From a virus (Duplodnaviria; Heunggongvirae; Uroviricota; Caudoviricetes), in IMG/VR virus record IMGVR_UViG_2703718777_000029, positions 1 to 16,352 of that record: DNA of 16,352 nt; one strand, 5' to 3'. Under the pieces are notes generated by a model, which was not told where the DNA came from, ran no database searches, and worked only from the letters and a program-made list of their open reading frames with translations. Positions 3,437-16,352 of this stretch are shown here, one piece after another (positions within the stretch are counted from its first letter, which is position 1; each line of letters opens with the position of its first letter). Both the position numbers and the translations under genes were made by a program.

Positions 3437-3832
3437 TTACCGAGTTGCTAATTTGCAACTCGCTTTTTCGTACTTACTGATAGTGATCTCGACCTTCCCT
3501 TCCGGGATAACCGGTCCCCACTCCACCAGCATTCTTTTCACCTGACTGTCGTCTTCCCACACACCCGCGTGGGTCAGGGCGTCAAACAGCGCCTTGTTAT
3601 AGTTGTCCAGATCGCGGATCCGGTTATCCGGAGGAAACAACACGATCTCCACTGATGCAGGTGCCGACGTTGGTTTTGGCAGACGACGTAACTGCTCAAC
3701 TATTGCTGCACACGCCGCGCTCTGAAATTTTCGCCCCGCCTCGCTTATCAGGCTCTTACCAGCAAATGCCACTTTGTTGGGGTGTCGCCAGTACATGTTC
3801 ACGCTGGGCGGAAAAGGCAGTATTAGCTTCAT
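3437..3832 (-). CDS. rusA: Holliday junction resolvase RusA, 131 aa
   Basis: MKLILPFPPSVNMYWRH... and RDLDNYNKALFDALTHAGVWEDDSQV match the RusA signature (compare E. coli RusA LPWPPSNNRYYRH / [26 protein letters not shown]). Start ATG overlaps the Dam stop (ATGA at 3829-3832). Confidence 0.9.
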   Translation of the reverse strand: MKLILPFPPSVNMYWRHPNKVAFAGKSLISEAGRKFQSAACAAIVEQLRRLPKPTSAPASVEIVLFPPDNRIRDLDNYNKALFDALTHAGVWEDDSQVKRMLVEWGPVIPEGKVEITISKYEKASCKLATR

Positions 3833-4482
3833 GCCACCATCTCCCTGACCAGTTTTTCCGCCTGCTGGCGAACCTGCGCCAGAAATGCCTCACCACATGC
3901 CTCAAGTTCATCGCGCCCGATGTAGCTGATTGCCGGTCCCTTCCAGGTCTTGTCGAAAACAGCAATAGCACCAGCGAAGAAAGCACCTGTTGGCACCTGC
4001 TTTTCGTCTTTCGGGATAAACCAGGCAGGCAGTTCAAAACCAATACGCCCGCGAATAAAAGCAATATGATCTGCATCTTCCGGCCACCACACTTCGCTGG
4101 TGGCAGCTTTGATCAGGAAAACATAGCGCCCGCCTTTATCACGCATGGCACTGGCATGCTTCATGATGTAACGCATGCCGGTGATGTATTGCCCCTCATG
4201 CTGACTGGCGCGGCTGTACGGGGGATTGCCAAAGGCAGCACCTTTAAGCTCCGCAAGACGTTCTGACCAGTCATGCGCCAGCGCGTTGTCTTCCGCCGTG
4301 TAATACGCGGCACATTTGGCGTTATCACCGTCAGTGAACAGATCCAGAACAAACGGACCAAACAAGGTGTTAATTCCCCAGAAAATGTTGTCCGGCGTGC
4401 GCCACTGATCGCCCACTTCCTTCAGTTCATGGGCTGGTTTGTTCCGCAGTTCTACCAGCGCCTGGCAATATTTATTACTCAT
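3829..4482 (-). CDS. Phage DNA N6-adenine methyltransferase (Dam family), 217 aa
   Basis: NPPY catalytic motif (FGNPPYS) typical of N6-adenine methyltransferases; overall resemblance to phage orphan Dam methylases. Start ATG overlaps the stop of the upstream small ORF. Confidence 0.8.
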   Translation of the reverse strand: MSNKYCQALVELRNKPAHELKEVGDQWRTPDNIFWGINTLFGPFVLDLFTDGDNAKCAAYYTAEDNALAHDWSERLAELKGAAFGNPPYSRASQHEGQYITGMRYIMKHASAMRDKGGRYVFLIKAATSEVWWPEDADHIAFIRGRIGFELPAWFIPKDEKQVPTGAFFAGAIAVFDKTWKGPAISYIGRDELEACGEAFLAQVRQQAEKLVREMVA

Positions 4483-4574
4483 TAAGCCCCCACGTAAAAA
4501 GCATCCGCAATGTCTCCGGAAGTACAGCCCGGATGGGCTTCAATGAATTTCTGAACGTCATTTAACAGACTCAT
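4482..4574 (-). CDS. Unannotated small ORF, 30 aa (MSLLNDVQKFIEAHPGCTSGDIADAFYVGA), between the replication and Dam genes
   Basis: Hand-translated from the sequence. ATG at 4574 lies 2 nt after the O-like stop, preceded by AGGGGG; its TAA overlaps the Dam ATG (TAATG at 4480-4484). Below the ORF-track length cutoff. Confidence 0.4.
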   Translation of the reverse strand: MSLLNDVQKFIEAHPGCTSGDIADAFYVGA

Positions 4575-4576
4575 GA

Positions 4577-5407
4577 TCACCCCCTGAATCCTGCCGGGAT
4601 CTGGCTGTAGTCCACGTTGTCGTAACTGGCTTTGAAGTACGGGTCCTCACGTCCGGCTACAGATACCGCAGGAACTTCCCAGGATTCTTCGAAATGACGA
4701 TCCGGACCAAAGAACGTGACAGCCTGTTTCACAAATTGTGTGCCGCTGTTACCCATCGCAGATACCCAGCCCGCGTAGCGTTTCACACCTTCCAGCATGG
4801 TTTCGGGTTTTACCCCCTCATTCAAACGGGCTTTCCAGGCTTTGAAGGCTGCAGATTTTGAATTGCCACCAGCACGTTTGGGGTATGCCAGCCATGCCTG
4901 CTCAAACTCCGGAGAGTATTCCGGTCGGTTTGAACGAACTCGCACAGACTCATCAGCAGATGCACCAACAGCTATTGGTTCATTGACTGGTTCTTTGACT
5001 GGTTCTTTGACTGGTTCAAAAGAGTGACTGGTTCTGGGTGAATCTCCTGCACTACCCCCTGGTGCAACTCCTGCACTACCTGGTGAATTTGCTGCACCAG
5101 ATAGTGAATTATTTGCACTACCCCCTAGTGAATCTCCTGCACCATCCAGATGAAGGAGATAGATATTACTTGAGTTACCTTTTTCACCTTTCCGGGTGAC
5201 TTTTTTTACCAGCCCGGACTCACAAAGGGCCGCAATATGATTCATCACAGAACGTTTGCTAATCTCGCACTGGTCAGCAATATGCTGGTAGCTGGGCCAG
5301 CACTCGCCCTGATCGCTGGCATTATCAGCCAGCTTAATCAGAACCAGTTTTCGCAATGGATTTCCCACTCGAATTTTCATCGCTTTAACCATCAGCTCCA
5401 TACTCAT
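4577..5407 (-). CDS. Replication initiator (O-like) with N-terminal winged-HTH domain and internal repeat linker, 276 aa
   Basis: N-terminal LRKLVLIKLADNASDQGECWPSYQHIADQCEISKRSVMNHIAALCESGLVKK resembles phage replication-initiator HTH domains. Central low-complexity G/S/A-rich linker and EPVKEPVKEPV are encoded by DNA repeats. ATG at 5407 has a strong GGAGGTG RBS and overlaps the upstream stop (ATGA); the track start at 5446 is a TTG. Confidence 0.65.
   Translation of the reverse strand: MSMELMVKAMKIRVGNPLRKLVLIKLADNASDQGECWPSYQHIADQCEISKRSVMNHIAALCESGLVKKVTRKGEKGNSSNIYLLHLDGAGDSLGGSANNSLSGAANSPGSAGVAPGGSAGDSPRTSHSFEPVKEPVKEPVNEPIAVGASADESVRVRSNRPEYSPEFEQAWLAYPKRAGGNSKSAAFKAWKARLNEGVKPETMLEGVKRYAGWVSAMGNSGTQFVKQAVTFFGPDRHFEESWEVPAVSVAGREDPYFKASYDNVDYSQIPAGFRG
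4983..5145. repeat. Iteron-like direct repeats inside the O-like gene (candidate origin of replication)
   Basis: Three tandem copies of TTTGACTGGTTC (4982-5017) plus a fourth TGACTGGTTC (5025-5034), then about five degenerate ~24-bp repeats of the type GAATCTCCTGCACTACCCCCTGGT (5039-5145), followed by an AT-rich stretch. Analogous to lambda ori iterons embedded in O. Confidence 0.5.
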
Positions 5408-5628
5408 GCAGCACCTCCGAGATGCTTCATGTTTTTTCCGGAGCAAAAGGCTATAAGCGGCATACTGATGCGGTAATTACGGCCCAGCGGTTCACAAATC
5501 ACCTTCTGACATTCACGGTCAACCAGGCTAACACGTAGAACATGCCCTGCAGGTGTGGTGTACCACTGACCGGGGCGAGGACAACGGAAAGTCTGATTGG
5601 TAAACCGTTTGAAAATATTCCGGATCAT
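5404..5628 (-). CDS. Hypothetical small protein, 74 aa
   Basis: ATG at 5628 preceded by AAGGGGG and overlapping the Rha stop (ATGA); its stop overlaps the O-like ATG (ATGA). No recognisable domain. Confidence 0.5.
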   Translation of the reverse strand: MIRNIFKRFTNQTFRCPRPGQWYTTPAGHVLRVSLVDRECQKVICEPLGRNYRISMPLIAFCSGKNMKHLGGAA

Positions 5629-6773
5629 TTACGCCCCCTTACCTCTGAAGAGTTCAGCGACGAATGAATAAGACGGGCAAGAAATGCCGCATCGTTAATT
5701 CGGTCATACAGACTTACAGCCAGCGGTGATTCAACTTTTGCCAACATAGGATAAAGCTGCTGCAGCCAGACCTGATGAATTGATGAAATGTAGGAATAGA
5801 GAACGTTGGCGTTATGTGCAACGTCGCTCGGTACAGAGGGCTTTGAAAGCTGTTTCTCCATCTGGTTAAAGGCATTGATGTATGCCTCTTTGAACTGGGC
5901 AGCACGTTTACCAGTGAAACCCATAGCAAGAAACGCAAAGCCGTCGCGGGTTATTTGATAGCAAGGTAGTTTGCGGCCTGTGCAATCGGTGTAATCACTC
6001 ACCGAAAAATTGCGGGCAGTGAATGATGCGGAACATTCAAGCGTGCGGATCTTTTTCAGTACATCGTCATGACGTTTGGAGAAGAAGTTGGCAACAGCCA
6101 GGGATGAAGTAACAGCCTGACCATCAACGATGGCAATTTCAGGTTGAGTGAGGGTTGGGATCGTAGCCATGATGGCAGCCTCCGTTGACTGTGGAAAACT
6201 TCCACCACCGGAGCTGCGAAACTCACTGGTGGCAGACTGAACAGGGTTCGCAGTACCGGCGTCAACGGAGACCGGCGAGCCTTTCGGCTCCCCTGCCCAG
6301 CCCACCATAATTCTGGCGTGCGTGAGCGCGGACGATAAAAAAGACGCTGGCGCGTCGTATATCGCCGTTGACAATTCCGGGCTGCGACCCCCGGCACCCG
6401 CTTTATAAGGTGCCTGAACAGTGTAACGTCCCGGAATTCCAGAATCAATATGCTGGTGGTCCTTCACACTCAACAAAATCACGCCTGAATTTCCACAAAG
6501 GACTAAAGCACTCATGTGGGTAGTCTTTGCGAAGATAGATAACGCGCTGTGTTTCTGGCTCCCAACGAATAACATGAACATAAAGTCCTCTTCCGTCACG
6601 AAACCAGCGGTTAAGTTCCTGCACAACTCGCCCCCCACAGTCAGGTAAAGTTCTCTGTGGTTACTTACAGCCAGGTGATTTGGTAATCTGCATTCATGCC
6701 GTAACAACAGGTGTTCAGAGACGCTGACCACCAGCTGTTGCGACAAACGGTTATTTGCCGTTAAACTGTTCAT
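5625..6773 (-). CDS. Rha-family phage regulatory protein; Rha domain begins at the internal ATG at 6170 (181 aa), while the open frame continues upstream to 6773 (382 aa)
   Basis: MATIPTLTQPEIAIVDGQAVTSSLAVANFFSKRHDDVLKKIRTLE... is a typical Rha N-terminus, and the ATG at 6170 has GGAGG 8 nt upstream. The frame stays open for 201 further codons upstream to an ATG at 6773 that overlaps the CII-like stop (ATGA). The 6171-6773 portion has no recognised domain. Confidence 0.65.
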   Translation of the reverse strand: MNSLTANNRLSQQLVVSVSEHLLLRHECRLPNHLAVSNHRELYLTVGGELCRNLTAGFVTEEDFMFMLFVGSQKHSALSIFAKTTHMSALVLCGNSGVILLSVKDHQHIDSGIPGRYTVQAPYKAGAGGRSPELSTAIYDAPASFLSSALTHARIMVGWAGEPKGSPVSVDAGTANPVQSATSEFRSSGGGSFPQSTEAAIMATIPTLTQPEIAIVDGQAVTSSLAVANFFSKRHDDVLKKIRTLECSASFTARNFSVSDYTDCTGRKLPCYQITRDGFAFLAMGFTGKRAAQFKEAYINAFNQMEKQLSKPSVPSDVAHNANVLYSYISSIHQVWLQQLYPMLAKVESPLAVSLYDRINDAAFLARLIHSSLNSSEVRGRK

Positions 6774-7354
6774 GCGTTAGTTTCTCCACAACCAGAAGCA
6801 ATCGACGCCACGACGCCCGGAGCTGCACACTCGCGGGCGTTACTCTTTTCCGGTGCACAAAAAACACGAAATAACAGTGTTAAATGCTCCTGCCACTTCG
6901 CCATTACTTGGTAGCTGTTCTCTTCGATTTGCTCACGCTCAGCCTGGTCAATAACTCCATCAGCAGTTGCCTTGCGTAAGTACTGGGAATGCTTGCCAAT
7001 CCATTCTATTGACTCCATCAGCCGCTGATTAATGTCACCATTGTCAATGTCATCAATGACCACCAGCGGCACAAACACCCCATAACTACGACGGGCTATT
7101 GCATCTGTTACATGCCTGGTACCACTGGCATCCTGTAAAACCATGGCCCACTCAAGTGGAAAAATTTGATCCCCACCGCTACGCAGTCTGTTATGCAATT
7201 GATCTTTTGCTGGGGTGATATCATCAGATTTATACAAACCAAGAATTTCTGCTGCTTCCTCATAGCCATGAGGTAAATCAGCAATCGTTCTTCGTATTGC
7301 TGCCACCAGCCATGCTGGTTGTTTATCAACTTTCCATTCAGGTTCTTTACCCAC
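6770..7354 (-). CDS. CII-like / YdaT-family early regulator, 194 aa from a GTG start
   Basis: Second gene of the rightward early operon, directly after the Cro-like gene. GTG at 7354 is preceded by GAGGAA at 8-nt spacing. Family assignment is from position and weak sequence impression only. Confidence 0.45.
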   Translation of the reverse strand: MGKEPEWKVDKQPAWLVAAIRRTIADLPHGYEEAAEILGLYKSDDITPAKDQLHNRLRSGGDQIFPLEWAMVLQDASGTRHVTDAIARRSYGVFVPLVVIDDIDNGDINQRLMESIEWIGKHSQYLRKATADGVIDQAEREQIEENSYQVMAKWQEHLTLLFRVFCAPEKSNARECAAPGVVASIASGCGETNA

Positions 7355-7381
7355 GGTTAATTCCTCATTTCTGTGGTGTTT

Positions 7382-7579
7382 TTATGCCGCAGCACTGTTA
7401 GTCTTTTGATATAAAGACACGTCAACTTTCAGTTTCCCGTTAGTAATTTTTTCTAACTGGTACGCTCGGCCTTCAGGAATAATCTCAGGCCACTCTGAAA
7501 CAGACGGATGCTTAATACCTAGGGCTTCGGCGGTTTTACAAACTCCGCCGAAATAATTAATCACGTCGGATTTCCGCAT
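7382..7579 (-). CDS. Cro-like (YdaS-type) HTH DNA-binding protein, 65 aa
   Basis: Small HTH protein (GGVCKTAEALGIKHPSVSEWPEIIPEGRAYQLEKITNGKL) divergent from the CI-like repressor; GGGAGA RBS 7 nt upstream of the ATG. Confidence 0.75.
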   Translation of the reverse strand: MRKSDVINYFGGVCKTAEALGIKHPSVSEWPEIIPEGRAYQLEKITNGKLKVDVSLYQKTNSAAA

Positions 7580-7610
7580 TTCTGTCTCCCGTTAAATTAC
7601 GTTAAGCAGA

Positions 7611-7676
7611 AATGTAGGATATCCAACATACCAATGTCAAGAATCCTACATAGTCATGTGGTAGGATTGCCTACAT
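7611..7676. promoter_or_regulatory. Right operator/promoter region: three operator sites and a PR-like promoter
   Basis: Site 1 ATGTAGGATATCCAACAT (7612-7629) is a near-palindrome. Site 2 (7634-7651) and site 3 (7659-7676) share the half-site ATCC(T/A)ACAT. On the minus strand, TTGACA (7640..7635), 18-nt spacer, TACATT (7616..7611) overlaps site 1 and would drive cro. Confidence 0.6.
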
Positions 7677-8328
7677 GATGAACATGAGTGATCGTATTCG
7701 CCAAAGGCGAAAAGAACTGAACCTGACACAACAAGCACTGGCTGATTTGACTGGTGTGAACCGTGTCACGGTTACTGGATGGGAAAAGGACGACTACCAA
7801 CCAAATGGAGCCAACCTTCAAGCCCTAGCCAACGCACTTAAATGCGATCCTCTGTGGCTTGTTAGCGGAAAAGGCTCGCCTGAACCAAAGATAAATCTAA
7901 AACCTGAAATATTCGCAGTTAAAAAAGTCCCCCTCATCTCGTGGGTTCAGGCGGGTTCATGGACAATGACGGAGCCTGGTGTCAGGAAAGAAGATGCTGA
8001 AGAGTGGGTTTATACTACCGCCCTTGTATCAGAAATGGCATTTGCACTACGGGTCCGTGGTGATTCAATGACCAATCCCCTCGGCTCACCATCGATACCA
8101 GAAGGTTCTATCGTTATCGTAGAGCCAGATATTATTGATACAGAGTGTATTAACGGAAAAATCGTTGTTGCCCATATCAATGGTGGGCAAGAAGCGACAC
8201 TCAAAAAATTTGTTGAGGACTGGCCGAACAGGTATCTCGTCCCACTAAATCCTAACTATAAAACTATTGAATGCGGTGAGAACTGCAGAATAGTTGGTCT
8301 TGTCAAACAAGTAATAATGGATTTTTGA
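7675..8328 (+). CDS. CI-like prophage repressor (XRE-family HTH plus S24 LexA-like autopeptidase domain), 217 aa
   Basis: N-terminal HTH (LNLTQQALADLTGVNRVTVTGWE); C-terminal S24 peptidase signature with GDSM serine (RVRGDSMTNP) and a downstream lysine (EATLKKF). No SD before the ATG cluster at 7675/7678/7684, so the mRNA may be leaderless as for lambda cI. Confidence 0.85.
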   Translation: MMNMSDRIRQRRKELNLTQQALADLTGVNRVTVTGWEKDDYQPNGANLQALANALKCDPLWLVSGKGSPEPKINLKPEIFAVKKVPLISWVQAGSWTMTEPGVRKEDAEEWVYTTALVSEMAFALRVRGDSMTNPLGSPSIPEGSIVIVEPDIIDTECINGKIVVAHINGGQEATLKKFVEDWPNRYLVPLNPNYKTIECGENCRIVGLVKQVIMDF

Positions 8329-13177: not shown

Positions 13178-13341
13178 TACGTATTCGTTCAGATGTGAGT
13201 TAACACATCTATGGCACAGAGCTAAACCTAATAAGACTGTCTACTCTGTGCCTGAAGTAGATGTTGCAAATACCACCAGCGAAGCACCAAAATTAATGGT
13301 GCAGGATGATGCAGATAATTCTGATGAAAACACCCAGAATT

Positions 13342-13350
13342 TGTTACAAT
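13342..13350 (+). promoter_or_regulatory. Candidate extended -10 promoter for the AT-rich membrane-protein gene
   Basis: TGtTACAAT (TG, one base, then TACAAT) about 60 nt upstream of the ATG at 13410; no convincing -35 element. Confidence 0.35.
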
Positions 13351-13409
13351 AAGTACATAGTATTAAAGTTTTTTATGAATGTCTAAATGTATCTTATTCA
13401 GAGGTGATA

Positions 13410-14957
13410 ATGGGTGCCAATGGTTTACTAGCAGTCTTCGCCATACTTATTGCTTGGTATACTCTCTTAACGGATGAGAGACGTGTTGATTTAAGGTTAC
13501 GCATATCTAAATTTAATTTAGTATTCATTATCTTTTTTATATCAACAATATTAACAGTTATATATTCTAAGGTTTTGCTAAGTGTTTTCCCGATAAAACC
13601 GATCCCTTGGATACTCGGTTTTAACGAAGATACATTGGCTTTTACTTGTCTTTGTATCATAATTATATTTTTTGGAATTAAAGTACAGGGCAAAATACTA
13701 CCAAAATCAAACCTTACCTGTTGGATCAGTGTTTCAGAAACATATCTGCGCGCAAAAAAAATAGAACAACTAGGATATCTTTTTGATAAATATCACGAGC
13801 AGCTATTCAATATAATCAGCAATAAAAAATGGTATGTTCGCGTACATAATTACTTAGCCCCTTCATTATCTCCCATTGAAATGGATGAAGAGAAGGTAAA
13901 AAAATTACGATTCAAAAAAGTCAGGAGATTTCTGTCAAAGTTTTTCCCTTATGAAGACAAAAGACAAAATGATATTCAATTAAATATATCCAATCTTCTG
14001 AAATCAAAGGTTTTTTCACATTATCTAATTGATACTTACCCTCACGTAGCTATGAAGGCCACCTGCTTACAGCTTAGATATAATTGTGAGTATAATACAA
14101 ATTTCTTTACGTATTTAATATCTAACCCAAACAGCATTATGTATAGGGAGTTACGAGACAACCAAAATCGTTCATATACAGGGGAGTATGCACTCGACGA
14201 AAGTAATGCCTTGCTTAATTTTTATTTAAATGATATTCGCATGGCGATAGATTTAGAAATATGGAAACCTGTGGGTAATTATGTCATTAGCTACATAAAA
14301 AAACAAAAAGGGAGTTCTTGCTTTTACAATCATCCAGATAATTACTATTCAAGTAGTGATGAGCGTTGGGAATGCCCACTCTTCGTTGGATTGACGTTTT
14401 TCGATGTTATGGTATCTACAGCAATATTCAAACGCTCAAAAAACAATATGTGGCTCATGTATTATCGTTGTTTCCTAAAGGAAATACTTGAGAGCTATGA
14501 AAAATCTAGCAGCATAGATGTAAATAGAGAGTTCCCCATGCGATTTGATTATTTAATATATGAGCTAATCAGCCGTTGTAATATATGGGCAGGAGCAACA
14601 GAACACCTCAATTATGATAACTGGACAACAGAAGATAAAGAGCAATCTCCAGAGTTCTTTGCCTCTAAAACCTTGGGGGAAATGATGTATCTGATTATTA
14701 CTTCAGAAAAAATGCATAACAATCAAAAGACATATCTTTTAGAAATCATTATTAAAAGAATGGACTCTCTTGATAAAAAGAAGAAATCTGCTTACTCCAA
14801 GGAAATCTTCAACAATCTTATCCGAGCATTCTCCCCTGCTTCCATTGATATAAATGCAGTAAATAAATTACGGCAACTTTATACAGGTGTTGATCATGTT
14901 CTAAAAAACAAAAATTCAACTTTTGAAGTTGAACTATCAAAATATCCTGACCAATAA
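13410..14957 (+). CDS. Hypothetical membrane-anchored protein, 515 aa (three N-terminal TM helices plus ~420-aa soluble domain); candidate defence or superinfection-exclusion moron
   Basis: ATG at 13410 preceded by GAGGTG; the track start at 13404 is a GTG. Hydrophobic segments LLAVFAILIAWYTLL, LVFIIFFISTILTVIYSKVLLSVF and LAFTCLCIIIIFFGI. The gene and its flanks are much more AT-rich than the rest of the window. No known domain recognised. Confidence 0.7.
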   Translation: MGANGLLAVFAILIAWYTLLTDERRVDLRLRISKFNLVFIIFFISTILTVIYSKVLLSVFPIKPIPWILGFNEDTLAFTCLCIIIIFFGIKVQGKILPKSNLTCWISVSETYLRAKKIEQLGYLFDKYHEQLFNIISNKKWYVRVHNYLAPSLSPIEMDEEKVKKLRFKKVRRFLSKFFPYEDKRQNDIQLNISNLLKSKVFSHYLIDTYPHVAMKATCLQLRYNCEYNTNFFTYLISNPNSIMYRELRDNQNRSYTGEYALDESNALLNFYLNDIRMAIDLEIWKPVGNYVISYIKKQKGSSCFYNHPDNYYSSSDERWECPLFVGLTFFDVMVSTAIFKRSKNNMWLMYYRCFLKEILESYEKSSSIDVNREFPMRFDYLIYELISRCNIWAGATEHLNYDNWTTEDKEQSPEFFASKTLGEMMYLIITSEKMHNNQKTYLLEIIIKRMDSLDKKKKSAYSKEIFNNLIRAFSPASIDINAVNKLRQLYTGVDHVLKNKNSTFEVELSKYPDQ

Positions 14958-15128: not shown

Positions 15129-16352
15129 TCAATTGGAGCATGAGTTAGTACAAGTAACAATCGATTCAACTCTCTCCCACCATGCCTGGTAGGCTTTACG
15201 CTGTTCTTCTAGATAATCGCTCTTATCATAAACTTGCCATACCCCTGGCAGTTTATGACCTAGCATTATTTCTGCAATATGAGGCTCAGTAAGATCAGAA
15301 AAGTTTGTTCGTGCTGTTCGTCTCAAATCATGAAGAGACCAATGAGGGAATTGATACCCCAAACGCCGCCATGCGTACTGCATTAAATTGTAAGGCAGCG
15401 ACTGCAATGATGTCCGACCAACGGGTTCCCTGCTTCCTTCCTTAGTAAAAAGCATATCGGAACCATTGTTCATAGAGATAGCGTACTTTATAAGCTCTTC
15501 AACCGGTTCAATAATGGGTCGCTTTAGCGGTTCGCCTGTTATCTCCCCAGTCTTATGTCGTTCTGGTGGTACAGTCCATACTTTATTAATGAAATCAAAA
15601 TCGTCCACCCGGGCAGTAATTAGCTCTGAACTACGGCAACCAAAATGCAGCAATAGTTTAATGAAGGCCCGGTATTTAGGAACCATTCGAGAACCATCGA
15701 TCGCAGCATAAAGGATTTTAATTTCATCATGTGTCAGAAACCGTTTCTTCTGACCTTTACGGATATCCATATCTTTACCCGTGATATCCGACAGCGGGCG
15801 AGTTTCAATGAGCTTTCTCTTATACGCCCAGACATGGGCCTGCTTTGCGTTAATTAGCAATCGGTCTGCTATTGCTGGAGTCTTAGTGCTAAGAGGCTCC
15901 AGGACCTCTAACCAATCATGCAATGTAGCTACATCGTGAGGGATACTCCCGATTTTAGAGAACAGGTGCAGTTCAAATGAGCGGAGTATCTGCTCAGAAC
16001 CTTTTTTATTTTTTACACAATATGCTGCATACCAGGCACGGATCACAGACTCCACCGTCATGGCTTCAGTAGCTTTGCGTTTTTCTACCTGCTTGACCAA
16101 TCGTGGATTGCGGTTTGACTCGAGTTCACCACGAAGACGGATAACTTCTTCTCTGGCCTCTTTTAATCCAGTTGCCGGGTAAGTTCCGATATCAAGACGC
16201 TCACCTTTCCCTGCCCATTGATAACGATATTGGAATACTACGCGACCTTTCGGTGATACTCTGACAGACAGACCATCACGATCGGATTTAACCAAAACCT
16301 TATCACGTTCCTTTCCAACGACTGAACGCAACCACGCATCAGACAGCGCCAT
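15129..16352 (-). CDS. int: Tyrosine recombinase / phage integrase (P4-type), 407 aa
   Basis: N-terminus MALSDAWLRS...GLSVRVSPKGRVVFQYRYQ matches P4-like integrase arm-binding domains. C-terminal catalytic signature includes HDLRRT (HxxR), GHKL...VYDKSDY (His and Tyr nucleophile). The ATG sits at the last three bases of the window, so promoter and att lie outside. Confidence 0.9.
   Translation of the reverse strand: MALSDAWLRSVVGKERDKVLVKSDRDGLSVRVSPKGRVVFQYRYQWAGKGERLDIGTYPATGLKEAREEVIRLRGELESNRNPRLVKQVEKRKATEAMTVESVIRAWYAAYCVKNKKGSEQILRSFELHLFSKIGSIPHDVATLHDWLEVLEPLSTKTPAIADRLLINAKQAHVWAYKRKLIETRPLSDITGKDMDIRKGQKKRFLTHDEIKILYAAIDGSRMVPKYRAFIKLLLHFGCRSSELITARVDDFDFINKVWTVPPERHKTGEITGEPLKRPIIEPVEELIKYAISMNNGSDMLFTKEGSREPVGRTSLQSLPYNLMQYAWRRLGYQFPHWSLHDLRRTARTNFSDLTEPHIAEIMLGHKLPGVWQVYDKSDYLEEQRKAYQAWWERVESIVTCTNSCSN

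What the first reader, a model, noticed from the sequence alone, without database searches (positions are those of the whole stretch)
4983..5215. Iteron arrays inside the O-like gene mark a probable replication origin, with no helicase-loader gene nearby
Tandem 12-bp repeats (TTTGACTGGTTC, three full copies plus one partial) and about five degenerate ~24-bp repeats are embedded in the linker-coding part of the initiator gene and are followed by an AT-rich stretch. This is the same logic as lambda ori within O. Unlike lambda, no P/DnaC-like or helicase gene follows; the next genes are the micro-ORF, Dam and RusA. The initiator may therefore recruit host DnaB/DnaC through its own C-terminal domain.
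Basis: partly seen in the sequence, partly recalled or inferred. Interest (0 to 1): 0.45.

Follow-up and report, generated by a model that had tools for sequence, protein, structure and literature searches.

The report
Phage replication origin inside initiator gene
The repeats are real and mark the likely replication origin of an SfV-type E. coli prophage whose single replication gene has no helicase or loader partner, a known but mechanistically unexplained kind of phage replication module.

Summary
On the minus strand, the linker-coding part of the initiator gene (4577-5407) carries five 15-bp sites, GTGCA-N5-TKCAC, spaced 24/21/21/24 bp (5038-5142). Four copies of GAACCAGTCA follow at 4984-5034. 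Neither motif occurs anywhere else in the window.

Eighty-one related genes from Enterobacteria, Pseudomonas, Shewanella, Aeromonas and Vibrio phages show selection on the DNA itself:
- The sites keep their dyad symmetry through compensatory arm changes.
- Spacing stays at 21-24 bp.
- Arm type tracks the recognition helix of the N-terminal winged-helix domain.
- The adjoining ~35-bp element has frozen synonymous codons and encodes the same word in two reading frames.

Across the family, the consistent low-GC element is the 12-bp repeat block itself.

No helicase or loader gene is present in the window or in the complete genome of the functional phage SfV. Relatives with the same C-terminal domain carry DnaC-like and DnaB-like genes, so use of the host DnaB/DnaC is plausible but unproven.

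The protein is not a lambda O family member; it is HTH_36/DnaD-like. "Solo-O" lambdoid modules are already noted in the literature as not understood.

Verdict: new member of a known kind, moderate interest.

The parts
4577..5407 (-). Replication initiator gene (276 aa from ATG 5407; the TTG at 5446 listed by the ORF finder is not the start used by homologues)
   Evidence: phrog_270 'replication initiation protein' E 4.7e-88. Pfam HTH_36 E 1.8e-11, DnaD_N 24.3 bits (cut-off 27), no Phage_rep_O. 97% identical to SfV orf39 and mEp460 gp43. 100% identical DNA in E. coli O157:H7 NE122.
5144..5407 (-). N-terminal winged-helix origin-binding domain (about residues 1-88); recognition helix around EISKRSVMNH
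   Evidence: HTH_36 residues 17-67. Residues 1-48 are nearly invariant in 79 homologues, while the helix and wing vary with iteron type.
5128..5142 (.). Iteron 1 (GTGCAGGAGATTCAC on the minus strand)
5104..5118 (.). Iteron 2 (GTGCAAATAATTCAC)
5083..5097 (.). Iteron 3 (GTGCAGCAAATTCAC)
5062..5076 (.). Iteron 4 (GTGCAGGAGTTGCAC, perfect 5-bp dyad)
5038..5052 (.). Iteron 5 (GTGCAGGAGATTCAC), 2 bp from the conserved element
   Evidence: The last spacing is 24 bp in virtually all multi-iteron arrays of the 81 genes.
4972..5037 (.). Family-invariant DNA element, minus strand CC-AGAACCAGTCAC-TCTTTT-(GAACCAGTCAAA)x3-GAACCAATAG. Candidate unwinding / helicase-entry element.
   Evidence: Codon entropy is 0.25 bits here against 1.45 bits in the N-domain. 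Arg is AGA in 75/75 genes; the same word is read as RTSH and as EPVK. This is the lowest relative GC across the family. The window has one more 12-bp unit than SfV, mEp460 and sal3.
5150..5215 (.).
   Evidence: Minimum 40-bp GC is 32.5%, the 10.6th percentile of the window. The family-wide dip here is only -5 to -7%.
4652..4936 (-). C-terminal helical domain (residues 158-252), candidate helicase/loader-recruiting module
   Evidence: 4449 cluster representatives at E<=0.001. No Pfam model. Fused to HTH_36, DUF1376, Phage_rep_O and other N-domains. AF2 pLDDT 85.8. Weak DnaD-like fold matches.
4482..4574 (-). Micro-ORF (30 aa): in-frame deletion remnant of the PerC-family gene (SfV orf40, 162 aa), made of its first 26 aa plus its last 4 aa (YVGA)
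5404..5628 (-). 74-aa ORF (phrog_1153, SfV orf38 homologue), translationally coupled to the initiator by an ATGA overlap; function unknown
   Evidence: It is also present upstream of phiP27 L17, which has DnaC and DnaB, so it is not specific to solo modules.
3829..4482 (-). Phage Dam methyltransferase (next gene downstream)
   Evidence: Pfam Dam E 9.7e-46
3437..3832 (-). RusA Holliday junction resolvase
   Evidence: Pfam RusA E 1.1e-14

Best explanation
This is the replication origin of an SfV/mEp460-type temperate phage, here a prophage of E. coli O157:H7. It is embedded in the linker-coding part of the phage's only replication gene.

Proposed mechanism:
1. Dimers of the N-terminal winged-helix domain bind five dyad-symmetric iterons (GTGCA-N5-TKCAC) spaced two helical turns apart and form an O-some-like complex. 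This is inferred, with strong comparative support.
2. The complex acts on the directly abutting, family-invariant, relatively GC-poor element that carries the GAACCAGTCA direct repeats. This element is the likely site of strand opening and helicase entry. The role is inferred; only the DNA-level constraint is shown.
3. The phage encodes no helicase or loader, so the helicase must come from the host. The most likely route is that the conserved C-terminal helical domain recruits host DnaB, with or without DnaC. This is inferred from relatives in which the same domain sits next to phage-encoded DnaC-like and DnaB-like genes.
For: The repeats are real and confined to the array.

Evidence from 81 related genes:
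- Of 334 iterons, 290 have at least 4 of 5 complementary arm pairs, against 2.2% of background 15-mers.
- Spacings are only 21-24 bp. Copy number is usually 4-5. The last iteron is always 2 bp from the conserved element.
- Dyad covariation: 87.1% of cells paired against 69.3% in shuffles (0/500); 75 double changes against 26; slid controls reach at most 0.08 against 0.447.
- The encoded peptide differs by lineage (GAGDSLGG, GGESPAP, PSANVAP, SDKMSP) while the DNA dyad is kept.
- Arm type tracks the recognition helix and wing: KRSVMNH/NSSN with GTGCA, RSTVKxH/NQSN with GGGCR, DRSTVRKH with a third type.
- Synonymous sites are frozen in CCCAGAACCAGTCACTCTTTTGAACCAGTCAAnGAACC (codon entropy 0.25 against 1.45 bits; AGA 75/75 against 4/78 for a conserved Arg in the N-domain), and GAACCAGTCA is read in two frames.
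- This element is the family-wide GC minimum.

No helicase or loader is found in the window or in the complete genome of the functional phage SfV.

The same C-domain is followed by DnaC+DnaB genes in 10 of 17 loci, including phiP27 (75% identical C-domain). The C-domain is a widespread module on diverse origin-binding N-domains with weak DnaD / replisome-organizer fold similarity.
Against: - There is no experimental evidence for binding, unwinding or autonomous replication.
- The conserved element is only moderately AT-rich in this window (37.5-42% GC against a 46% mean), far from lambda's AT-rich tract.
- The arm-helix correlation is partly phylogenetic, because the types form clades.
- This particular prophage has lost most of the PerC-family gene and lacks SfV orf42, so it may itself be defective.
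- Natural variants with only 1-2 iterons exist.
Confidence: 0.65

Rival explanations
1. The origin assignment is right, but the helicase is not recruited directly by the initiator. The initiator only opens or remodels DNA, and host DnaB is loaded through the PriA-PriB-DnaT restart primosome or through recombination- or R-loop-dependent initiation.
For: Some database records label this C-domain 'primosomal protein I' (phrog_9327). The module is followed by RusA and other recombination functions. A 2025 study links solo-O lambdoid phages such as LLS to RecBCD/Chi-aided, recombination-dependent growth and says their replication is not understood (PMC12315714).
Confidence: 0.15
2. The dyad repeats are initiator binding sites used mainly for regulation (autoregulation, roadblock to pR transcription, handcuffing), and the true start of replication lies elsewhere in the phage.
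For: Plasmid iterons have both roles (established knowledge). The AT-richness next to the array is weak. There is no DnaA box near the array.
Against: The array sits where lambdoid origins sit. It is rigidly coupled (2 bp, last spacing 24) to a DNA element under strong nucleotide-level selection that has no protein-level explanation. No other repeat array is found in the window.
Confidence: 0.1
3. The repeats are merely a slippage-prone, low-complexity protein linker with no function at the DNA level.
For: Copy number varies from 1 to about 9 units among E. coli variants, and the 12-bp unit varies by whole units. The region encodes a Gly/Ser/Ala/Pro-rich linker.
Against: Dyad symmetry with compensatory changes, fixed 21-24 bp phasing, invariant synonymous sites, the same DNA word in two reading frames, and divergent peptides over a conserved DNA architecture.
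Confidence: 0.03
4. This prophage copy is replication-defective, or depends on a helicase or loader supplied by another prophage in the same O157:H7 genome.
For: The PerC-family gene is reduced to 30 aa and SfV orf42 is missing. O157:H7 genomes carry many lambdoid prophages.
Against: Plaque-forming phages (SfV, mEp460, cdtI, the PhiR series) carry the same module without a loader. The initiator ORF and the array are intact and nearly identical to theirs.
Confidence: 0.07

Closest known systems
Phage lambda ori-lambda within gene O (and the P22 gene 18 and phage L origins)
   Same: An array of 4-6 dyad-symmetric initiator binding sites about two helical turns apart. It lies inside the initiator ORF, in the segment between the DNA-binding N-domain and the partner-binding C-domain, in the pR operon, with a lower-GC element on the promoter-distal side (PMC7466680, PMC8022706).
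   Different: The initiator is not a Phage_rep_O member; it is HTH_36/DnaD_N-like. There is no P or gp12 partner. The element next to the iterons is a sequence-invariant direct-repeat block of about 40% GC rather than a strongly AT-rich tract. Here the N-domain is the conserved part and the C-domain is swapped according to partner.
'Solo O' lambdoid replication modules (phage LLS and 34 of 314 Enterobacteriales lambdoid phages; Genome Res 2025, PMC12315714)
   Same: A single O-type gene with no helicase or loader in the module. That paper states the type is unstudied and 'not yet understood'.
   Different: The O protein of LLS shares only a 30%-identical N-domain and has different 15-bp repeats and a different C-domain. 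The paper does not describe iterons or DNA-level constraint.
phiP27 L17-L18-L19 module (initiator + DnaC-like + DnaB-like)
   Same: The same two-domain initiator (C-domain 75% identical), an orf38-like gene upstream, and GAACCGTCAAA-type repeats in the linker.
   Different: phiP27 and 10 other loci encode their own loader and helicase; the window and the SfV group do not.
DnaD / phage 'replisome organizer' proteins of Firmicutes (e.g. SPP1 G38P, DnaD)
   Different: All matches are weak or below threshold. There is no Pfam DnaB_2/DnaD hit on the C-domain.
Iteron plasmids (RK2 oriV, F, R6K)
   Same: Rep-bound iterons next to an unwinding element made of short direct repeats (the 13-mers). Rep proteins there recruit host DnaB, with or without DnaC (PMC4980987, PMC5043065; established knowledge).
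   Different: There are no DnaA boxes near the array. The origin lies inside the initiator ORF. The element is far less AT-rich.

Membership tests
Lambda-type phage origin (ori inside the initiator gene) | Array of at least 3-4 initiator-site repeats with internal dyad symmetry, phased about two helical turns apart | tested here: met
   Five sites of GTGCA-N5-TKCAC at 24/21/21/24 bp. The dyad is supported by covariation across 104 distinct iterons.
Lambda-type phage origin (ori inside the initiator gene) | Array located inside the initiator ORF between the DNA-binding and partner-binding domains | tested here: met
   Codons about 89-123 of a 276-aa protein, between HTH_36 (residues 17-67) and the C-domain (158-252).
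Lambda-type phage origin (ori inside the initiator gene) | Strongly AT-rich unwinding tract adjacent to the iterons | tested here: inconclusive
The downstream element is the family-wide GC minimum (-13 to -17% relative to the gene) but is 37.5-42% GC here.
Lambda-type phage origin (ori inside the initiator gene) | Initiator binds the repeats; the fragment replicates autonomously with the initiator in trans | not testable with these tools
   Only indirect support: co-variation of the recognition helix with arm type.
Lambda O protein family (Pfam Phage_rep_O, PF04492) | Sequence match to the O N-terminal domain model | tested here: not met
   No PF04492 hit; HTH_36 and sub-threshold DnaD_N instead. 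PF04492 occurs on other proteins that carry the same C-domain (5 of 111).
Lambda O-P type module | Adjacent helicase loader (P, DnaC-like) or helicase gene | tested here: not met
   None in the window or in the whole SfV genome.
Solo-initiator lambdoid replication module (PMC12315714) | Only an O-type gene; no helicase or loader encoded by the phage | tested here: met
   literature statement.
DnaD / replisome-organizer family | DnaD-type N-terminal winged helix | tested here: inconclusive
   DnaD_N 24.3 bits against a cut-off of 27.
DnaD / replisome-organizer family | DnaD-like C-terminal helical domain (DnaB_2 / DDBH2) | tested here: inconclusive
DnaT (primosomal protein I), as some records annotate the homologue | Sequence or fold similarity to E. 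coli DnaT | tested here: not met
Iteron-plasmid origin | DnaA boxes flanking the iterons and unwinding element | tested here: not met
   No TTWTNCACA within 4300-5800; three in the window against 1.95 expected.

The most novel reading that the evidence does not exclude
The invariant ~35-bp element (CCCAGAACCAGTCACTCTTTTGAACCAGTCAAnGAACC) would be a universal, sequence-specific helicase-entry / unwinding 'landing pad'. It is shared by a whole family of phage origins across Gammaproteobacteria, whatever the iteron specificity and whatever the partner (lambda-P-like, DnaC+DnaB, primase-helicase, unknown 268-aa protein, or none). It would be read as single-stranded or duplex DNA by the equally invariant first 48 residues of the initiator. 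It would also serve as the recombination joint that lets C-terminal partner-binding domains be exchanged. In solo phages such as this one, it would allow direct capture of host DnaB-DnaC without any phage loader.
Probability: 0.25. Interest if true: 0.65.

Novelty: new member of a known kind. Interest (0 to 1): 0.42.

Why it matters
About 900 of 5,426 complete E. coli genomes carry this initiator gene nearly full length, and about half carry at least a fragment. Carriers include Stx2- and Cdt-converting and serotype-converting phages, so the way this module replicates bears on toxin-phage amplification.

Solo-O lambdoid phages are explicitly described as not understood (PMC12315714). This locus offers a compact, testable origin of about 170 bp plus one gene, together with a natural comparison set: the same initiator with DnaC/DnaB, with P, or with nothing. 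That set could show how a phage initiator captures the host helicase without a loader.

The frozen synonymous sites also give a clean design for separating the cis (DNA) function from the trans (protein) function.

Tried and rejected
- A sequence search of the full protein and of a C-domain profile against PDB sequences gave nothing meaningful.
- The first AF2 run, on a shallow close-relative alignment, gave an unusable model (pLDDT 52.7). It was replaced by a run on 41 diverse C-domains (pLDDT 85.8).
- The afdb50 library was unavailable.
- Pfam and NCBIfam have no model for the C-domain.
- I recalled a term 'initiator-solo' from Weigel & Seitz 2006. It finds nothing in the library, and neither that review nor the SfV genome paper is held. 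I therefore could not check whether the SfV iterons were already listed there.
- DnaA boxes and GATC clustering at the origin: none.
- Promoter and terminator scan of 4300-5800: nothing above chance.
- I considered the 74-aa upstream ORF as a cryptic loader and rejected it as specific to solo modules, because phiP27 has it together with DnaC and DnaB.
- An overlapping ORF as the cause of the synonymous constraint was rejected. The constrained block is only about 40 bp, and an overlapping ORF cannot explain the dyads.
- The DnaT label in some records is not supported.

Full report
**What is there**

The window is the early region of a lambdoid prophage, and the relevant genes are on the minus strand:
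- cI-like repressor, 7675-8328 (+)
- cro, 7382-7579
- YmfL/CII-like gene, 6770-7354
- Ash+Rha regulator, 5625-6773
- 74-aa ORF, 5404-5628
- initiator, 4577-5407
- 30-aa micro-ORF, 4482-4574
- Dam, 3829-4482
- RusA, 3437-3832
- KilA-N gene, DUF968/HNH gene and Q further downstream

The initiator DNA is 100% identical to E. coli O157:H7 strain NE122. It is about 97% identical at the protein level to SfV orf39 and mEp460 gp43.

**The observation**

TRF and the repeat finder recover both arrays at the stated positions. On the coding strand, the '24-bp repeats' resolve into five 15-bp sites, GTGCA-N5-TKCAC, at 5142-5128, 5118-5104, 5097-5083, 5076-5062 and 5052-5038. The spacings are 24, 21, 21 and 24 bp. 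The motif occurs nowhere else in 16 kb (0.07 expected, 0/200 shuffles).

The '12-bp repeats' are four exact copies of GAACCAGTCA (0.03 expected) plus a degenerate fifth.

The 'AT-rich stretch' at 5150-5215 is the lowest-GC part of the gene (32.5% over 40 bp) but only the 10.6th percentile of the window. It encodes the wing of the DNA-binding domain and lies on the promoter-proximal side of the array.

**Is the DNA itself constrained?**

I fetched 80 related loci from one genome per species, plus phage loci. They span Enterobacteriaceae, Pseudomonas, Shewanella, Aeromonas, Marinomonas and Vibrio phages. All have the same layout: a near-invariant N-terminal domain, then 3-7 units of 7-8 aa whose peptide sequence differs by lineage, then a conserved PRTSHSFEPVNEP segment. 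Four results bear on constraint.

1. Dyad symmetry and phasing.
   - In every lineage the DNA units are arm5-N5-arm5 dyads.
   - Of 334 units, 290 have at least 4 of 5 complementary arm pairs, against 2.2% of other 15-mers in the same genes.
   - Spacings are confined to 21-24 bp.
   - The last unit always ends 2 bp before AGAACC.
2. Arm covariation.
   - The arms change in a compensatory way: GTGCA..TGCAC, GTGAA..TTCAC, GGGCA..TGCCC, GTGAC..GTCAC, TGCCG..CGGCA.
   - On 104 distinct units, 87.1% of cells pair against 69.3% in shuffles (0/500).
   - There are 75 double changes against 26, and slid controls collapse.
3. Protein-DNA co-variation.
   - Arm type tracks the recognition helix and wing of the N-domain.
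   - EIS[KR]RSV[MI]NH / NSSN goes with GTGCA. EIxRSTVKxH / NQSN goes with GGGCR. EIDRSTVRKH / NSTN goes with a third type.
   - Both main types occur in both Enterobacteria and Pseudomonas.
4. Frozen synonymous sites.
   - In the same 79 genes, conserved residues of the N-domain use synonymous codons freely (mean codon entropy 1.45 bits).
   - The PRTSHSFEPVNEP block is frozen at 0.25 bits. Arg is AGA in 75/75 genes, against 4/78 for a conserved Arg in the N-domain. Ser is AGT in 73/73 and TCT in 72/72.
   - GAACCAGTCA is encoded once as (A)GA-ACC-AGT-CA(C), giving RTSH, and again as GAA-CCA-GTC-A(AA), giving EPVK. These are two different reading frames.

The DNA is under direct selection.

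**Where is the unwinding element?**

I aligned all genes on the AGAACC anchor. The only strong, consistent GC dip (-13 to -17% relative to each gene) covers the first ~50 bp after the anchor, which is the 12-bp-repeat element.

The upstream flank of the array varies in length and sequence between lineages, whereas the downstream junction is fixed. I therefore favour 4972-5037 as the functional partner of the iterons. This would be analogous to lambda's promoter-distal AT-rich region, or to the 13-mer repeats of plasmid and oriC unwinding elements. In this window the element is only about 40% GC, so this step is an inference.

**The missing loader**

No DnaC-like, DnaB-like, lambda-P-like or primase-helicase gene is detectable in the window. 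None is detectable in the complete 37-kb genome of the plaque-forming phage SfV, either by annotation or by tblastn with partner proteins taken from related loci. mEp460, cdtI, sal3 and others have the same gene order.

Across the family, the N-domain-plus-iteron unit is combined with different C-domains and matching neighbours:

| Downstream partner | Loci |
|---|---|
| DnaC-like + DnaB-like (any C-domain) | 26 |
| Unknown 268-aa protein (Pseudomonas) | 20 |
| Lambda-P-like | 14 |
| DnaC-like only | 9 |
| Unknown 174-aa protein (Aeromonas) | 5 |
| DnaB-like only | 1 |
| Primase-helicase | 1 |
| None | 11 |

The window's C-domain type occurs in 17 loci. Ten are followed by DnaC+DnaB genes, including phiP27 (C-domain 75% identical). 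One has DnaC only, and six have nothing.

This is the best available argument that the domain works with DnaC/DnaB-family proteins, and hence with the host's own proteins in solo phages.

**The C-terminal domain**
- It has 4449 cluster representatives at 50% identity.
- It has no Pfam or NCBIfam model.
- It is fused to HTH_36, DUF1376, Phage_rep_O and other winged-helix N-domains.
- It matches phage DnaD and replisome-organizer models in BFVD.
- I treat this similarity as a hint, not as family membership.

**Other details**
- The micro-ORF is the first 26 and last 4 codons of the PerC-family gene that follows the initiator in SfV and mEp460, so it is an in-frame 396-bp deletion. SfV orf42 is also absent.
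- The window has one more 12-bp unit than SfV, mEp460 and sal3.
- E. coli variants carry from 1 to about 9 iteron units.
- There are no DnaA boxes or GATC sites in the array.

**Comparison with what is known**

Iterons inside O-type genes are textbook for lambda, P22 and phage L (PMC7466680, PMC8022706). [quoted passage not shown] Its example phage, LLS, has an O protein of a different subfamily.

The finding is therefore a well-supported new member of a known kind. What I could not find described elsewhere are the family-wide nucleotide-level invariance of the junction element, the iteron-helix co-variation, and the partner-swapping pattern. I could not access Weigel & Seitz 2006 or the SfV genome paper to check for prior mention.

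**Verdict**

| Claim | Confidence |
|---|---|
| The array is an initiator-binding origin | about 0.85 |
| The 12-bp-repeat element is the opening / helicase-entry site | about 0.5 |
| The C-domain recruits host DnaB/DnaC | about 0.5 |
| Composite statement | 0.65 |

Interest is 0.42.

Noticed in passing
window 4482-4574 (-): The 30-aa micro-ORF is an in-frame internal deletion of the 162-aa PerC-family gene (SfV orf40 / yfdN-like): its first 26 aa joined to its last 4 aa (YVGA). Its stop overlaps the Dam start (TAATG).
   Followed up: yes
window 3829-3835 junction (Dam/RusA): The LexA-like 108-aa gene found between Dam and RusA in SfV and mEp460 (orf42) is absent here; Dam runs directly into RusA.
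   Followed up: partly
window 13336-14957 (+): A very AT-rich block (40-bp windows down to 10-20% GC) holds a 517-aa ORF (13404-14957) next to the integrase (15129-16352, -). It has no Pfam or PADLOC hit, only phrog_13820 of unknown function. It looks like a foreign cargo (moron) gene.
   Followed up: partly
L018-L037, L041, L047, L060 (Pseudomonas loci), about 6890-7700: In 20 Pseudomonas loci the initiator is followed by a conserved ~265-aa protein with no Pfam hit, in the position where P or DnaC sits elsewhere. This is a candidate new helicase-loader family. Aeromonas loci have a different unknown ~174-aa protein there.
   Followed up: partly
L005 3282-3330 (phiP27 L17): phiP27's initiator has a 15-bp repeat, TGAACCGTCAAAATC, that contains nearly the same word (GAACCGTCAAA) as the window's 12-bp repeat, but with a different period.
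   Followed up: no
window 5404-5628 (-): A conserved 74-aa ORF (phrog_1153, SfV orf38) is translationally coupled to the initiator by an ATGA overlap. Its function is unknown. It is also present upstream of phiP27 L17.
   Followed up: partly
E. coli K-12-type genomes (e.g. NZ_CP043197.1): K-12-lineage genomes keep only the last ~76 bp of this initiator gene next to yfdN (PerC family). This is a remnant in the CPS-53/KpLE1 cryptic prophage. About half of all complete E. coli genomes have some fragment of the gene.
   Followed up: no
One such site was found where 1.7 are expected by chance, so it is probably meaningless.
   Followed up: no
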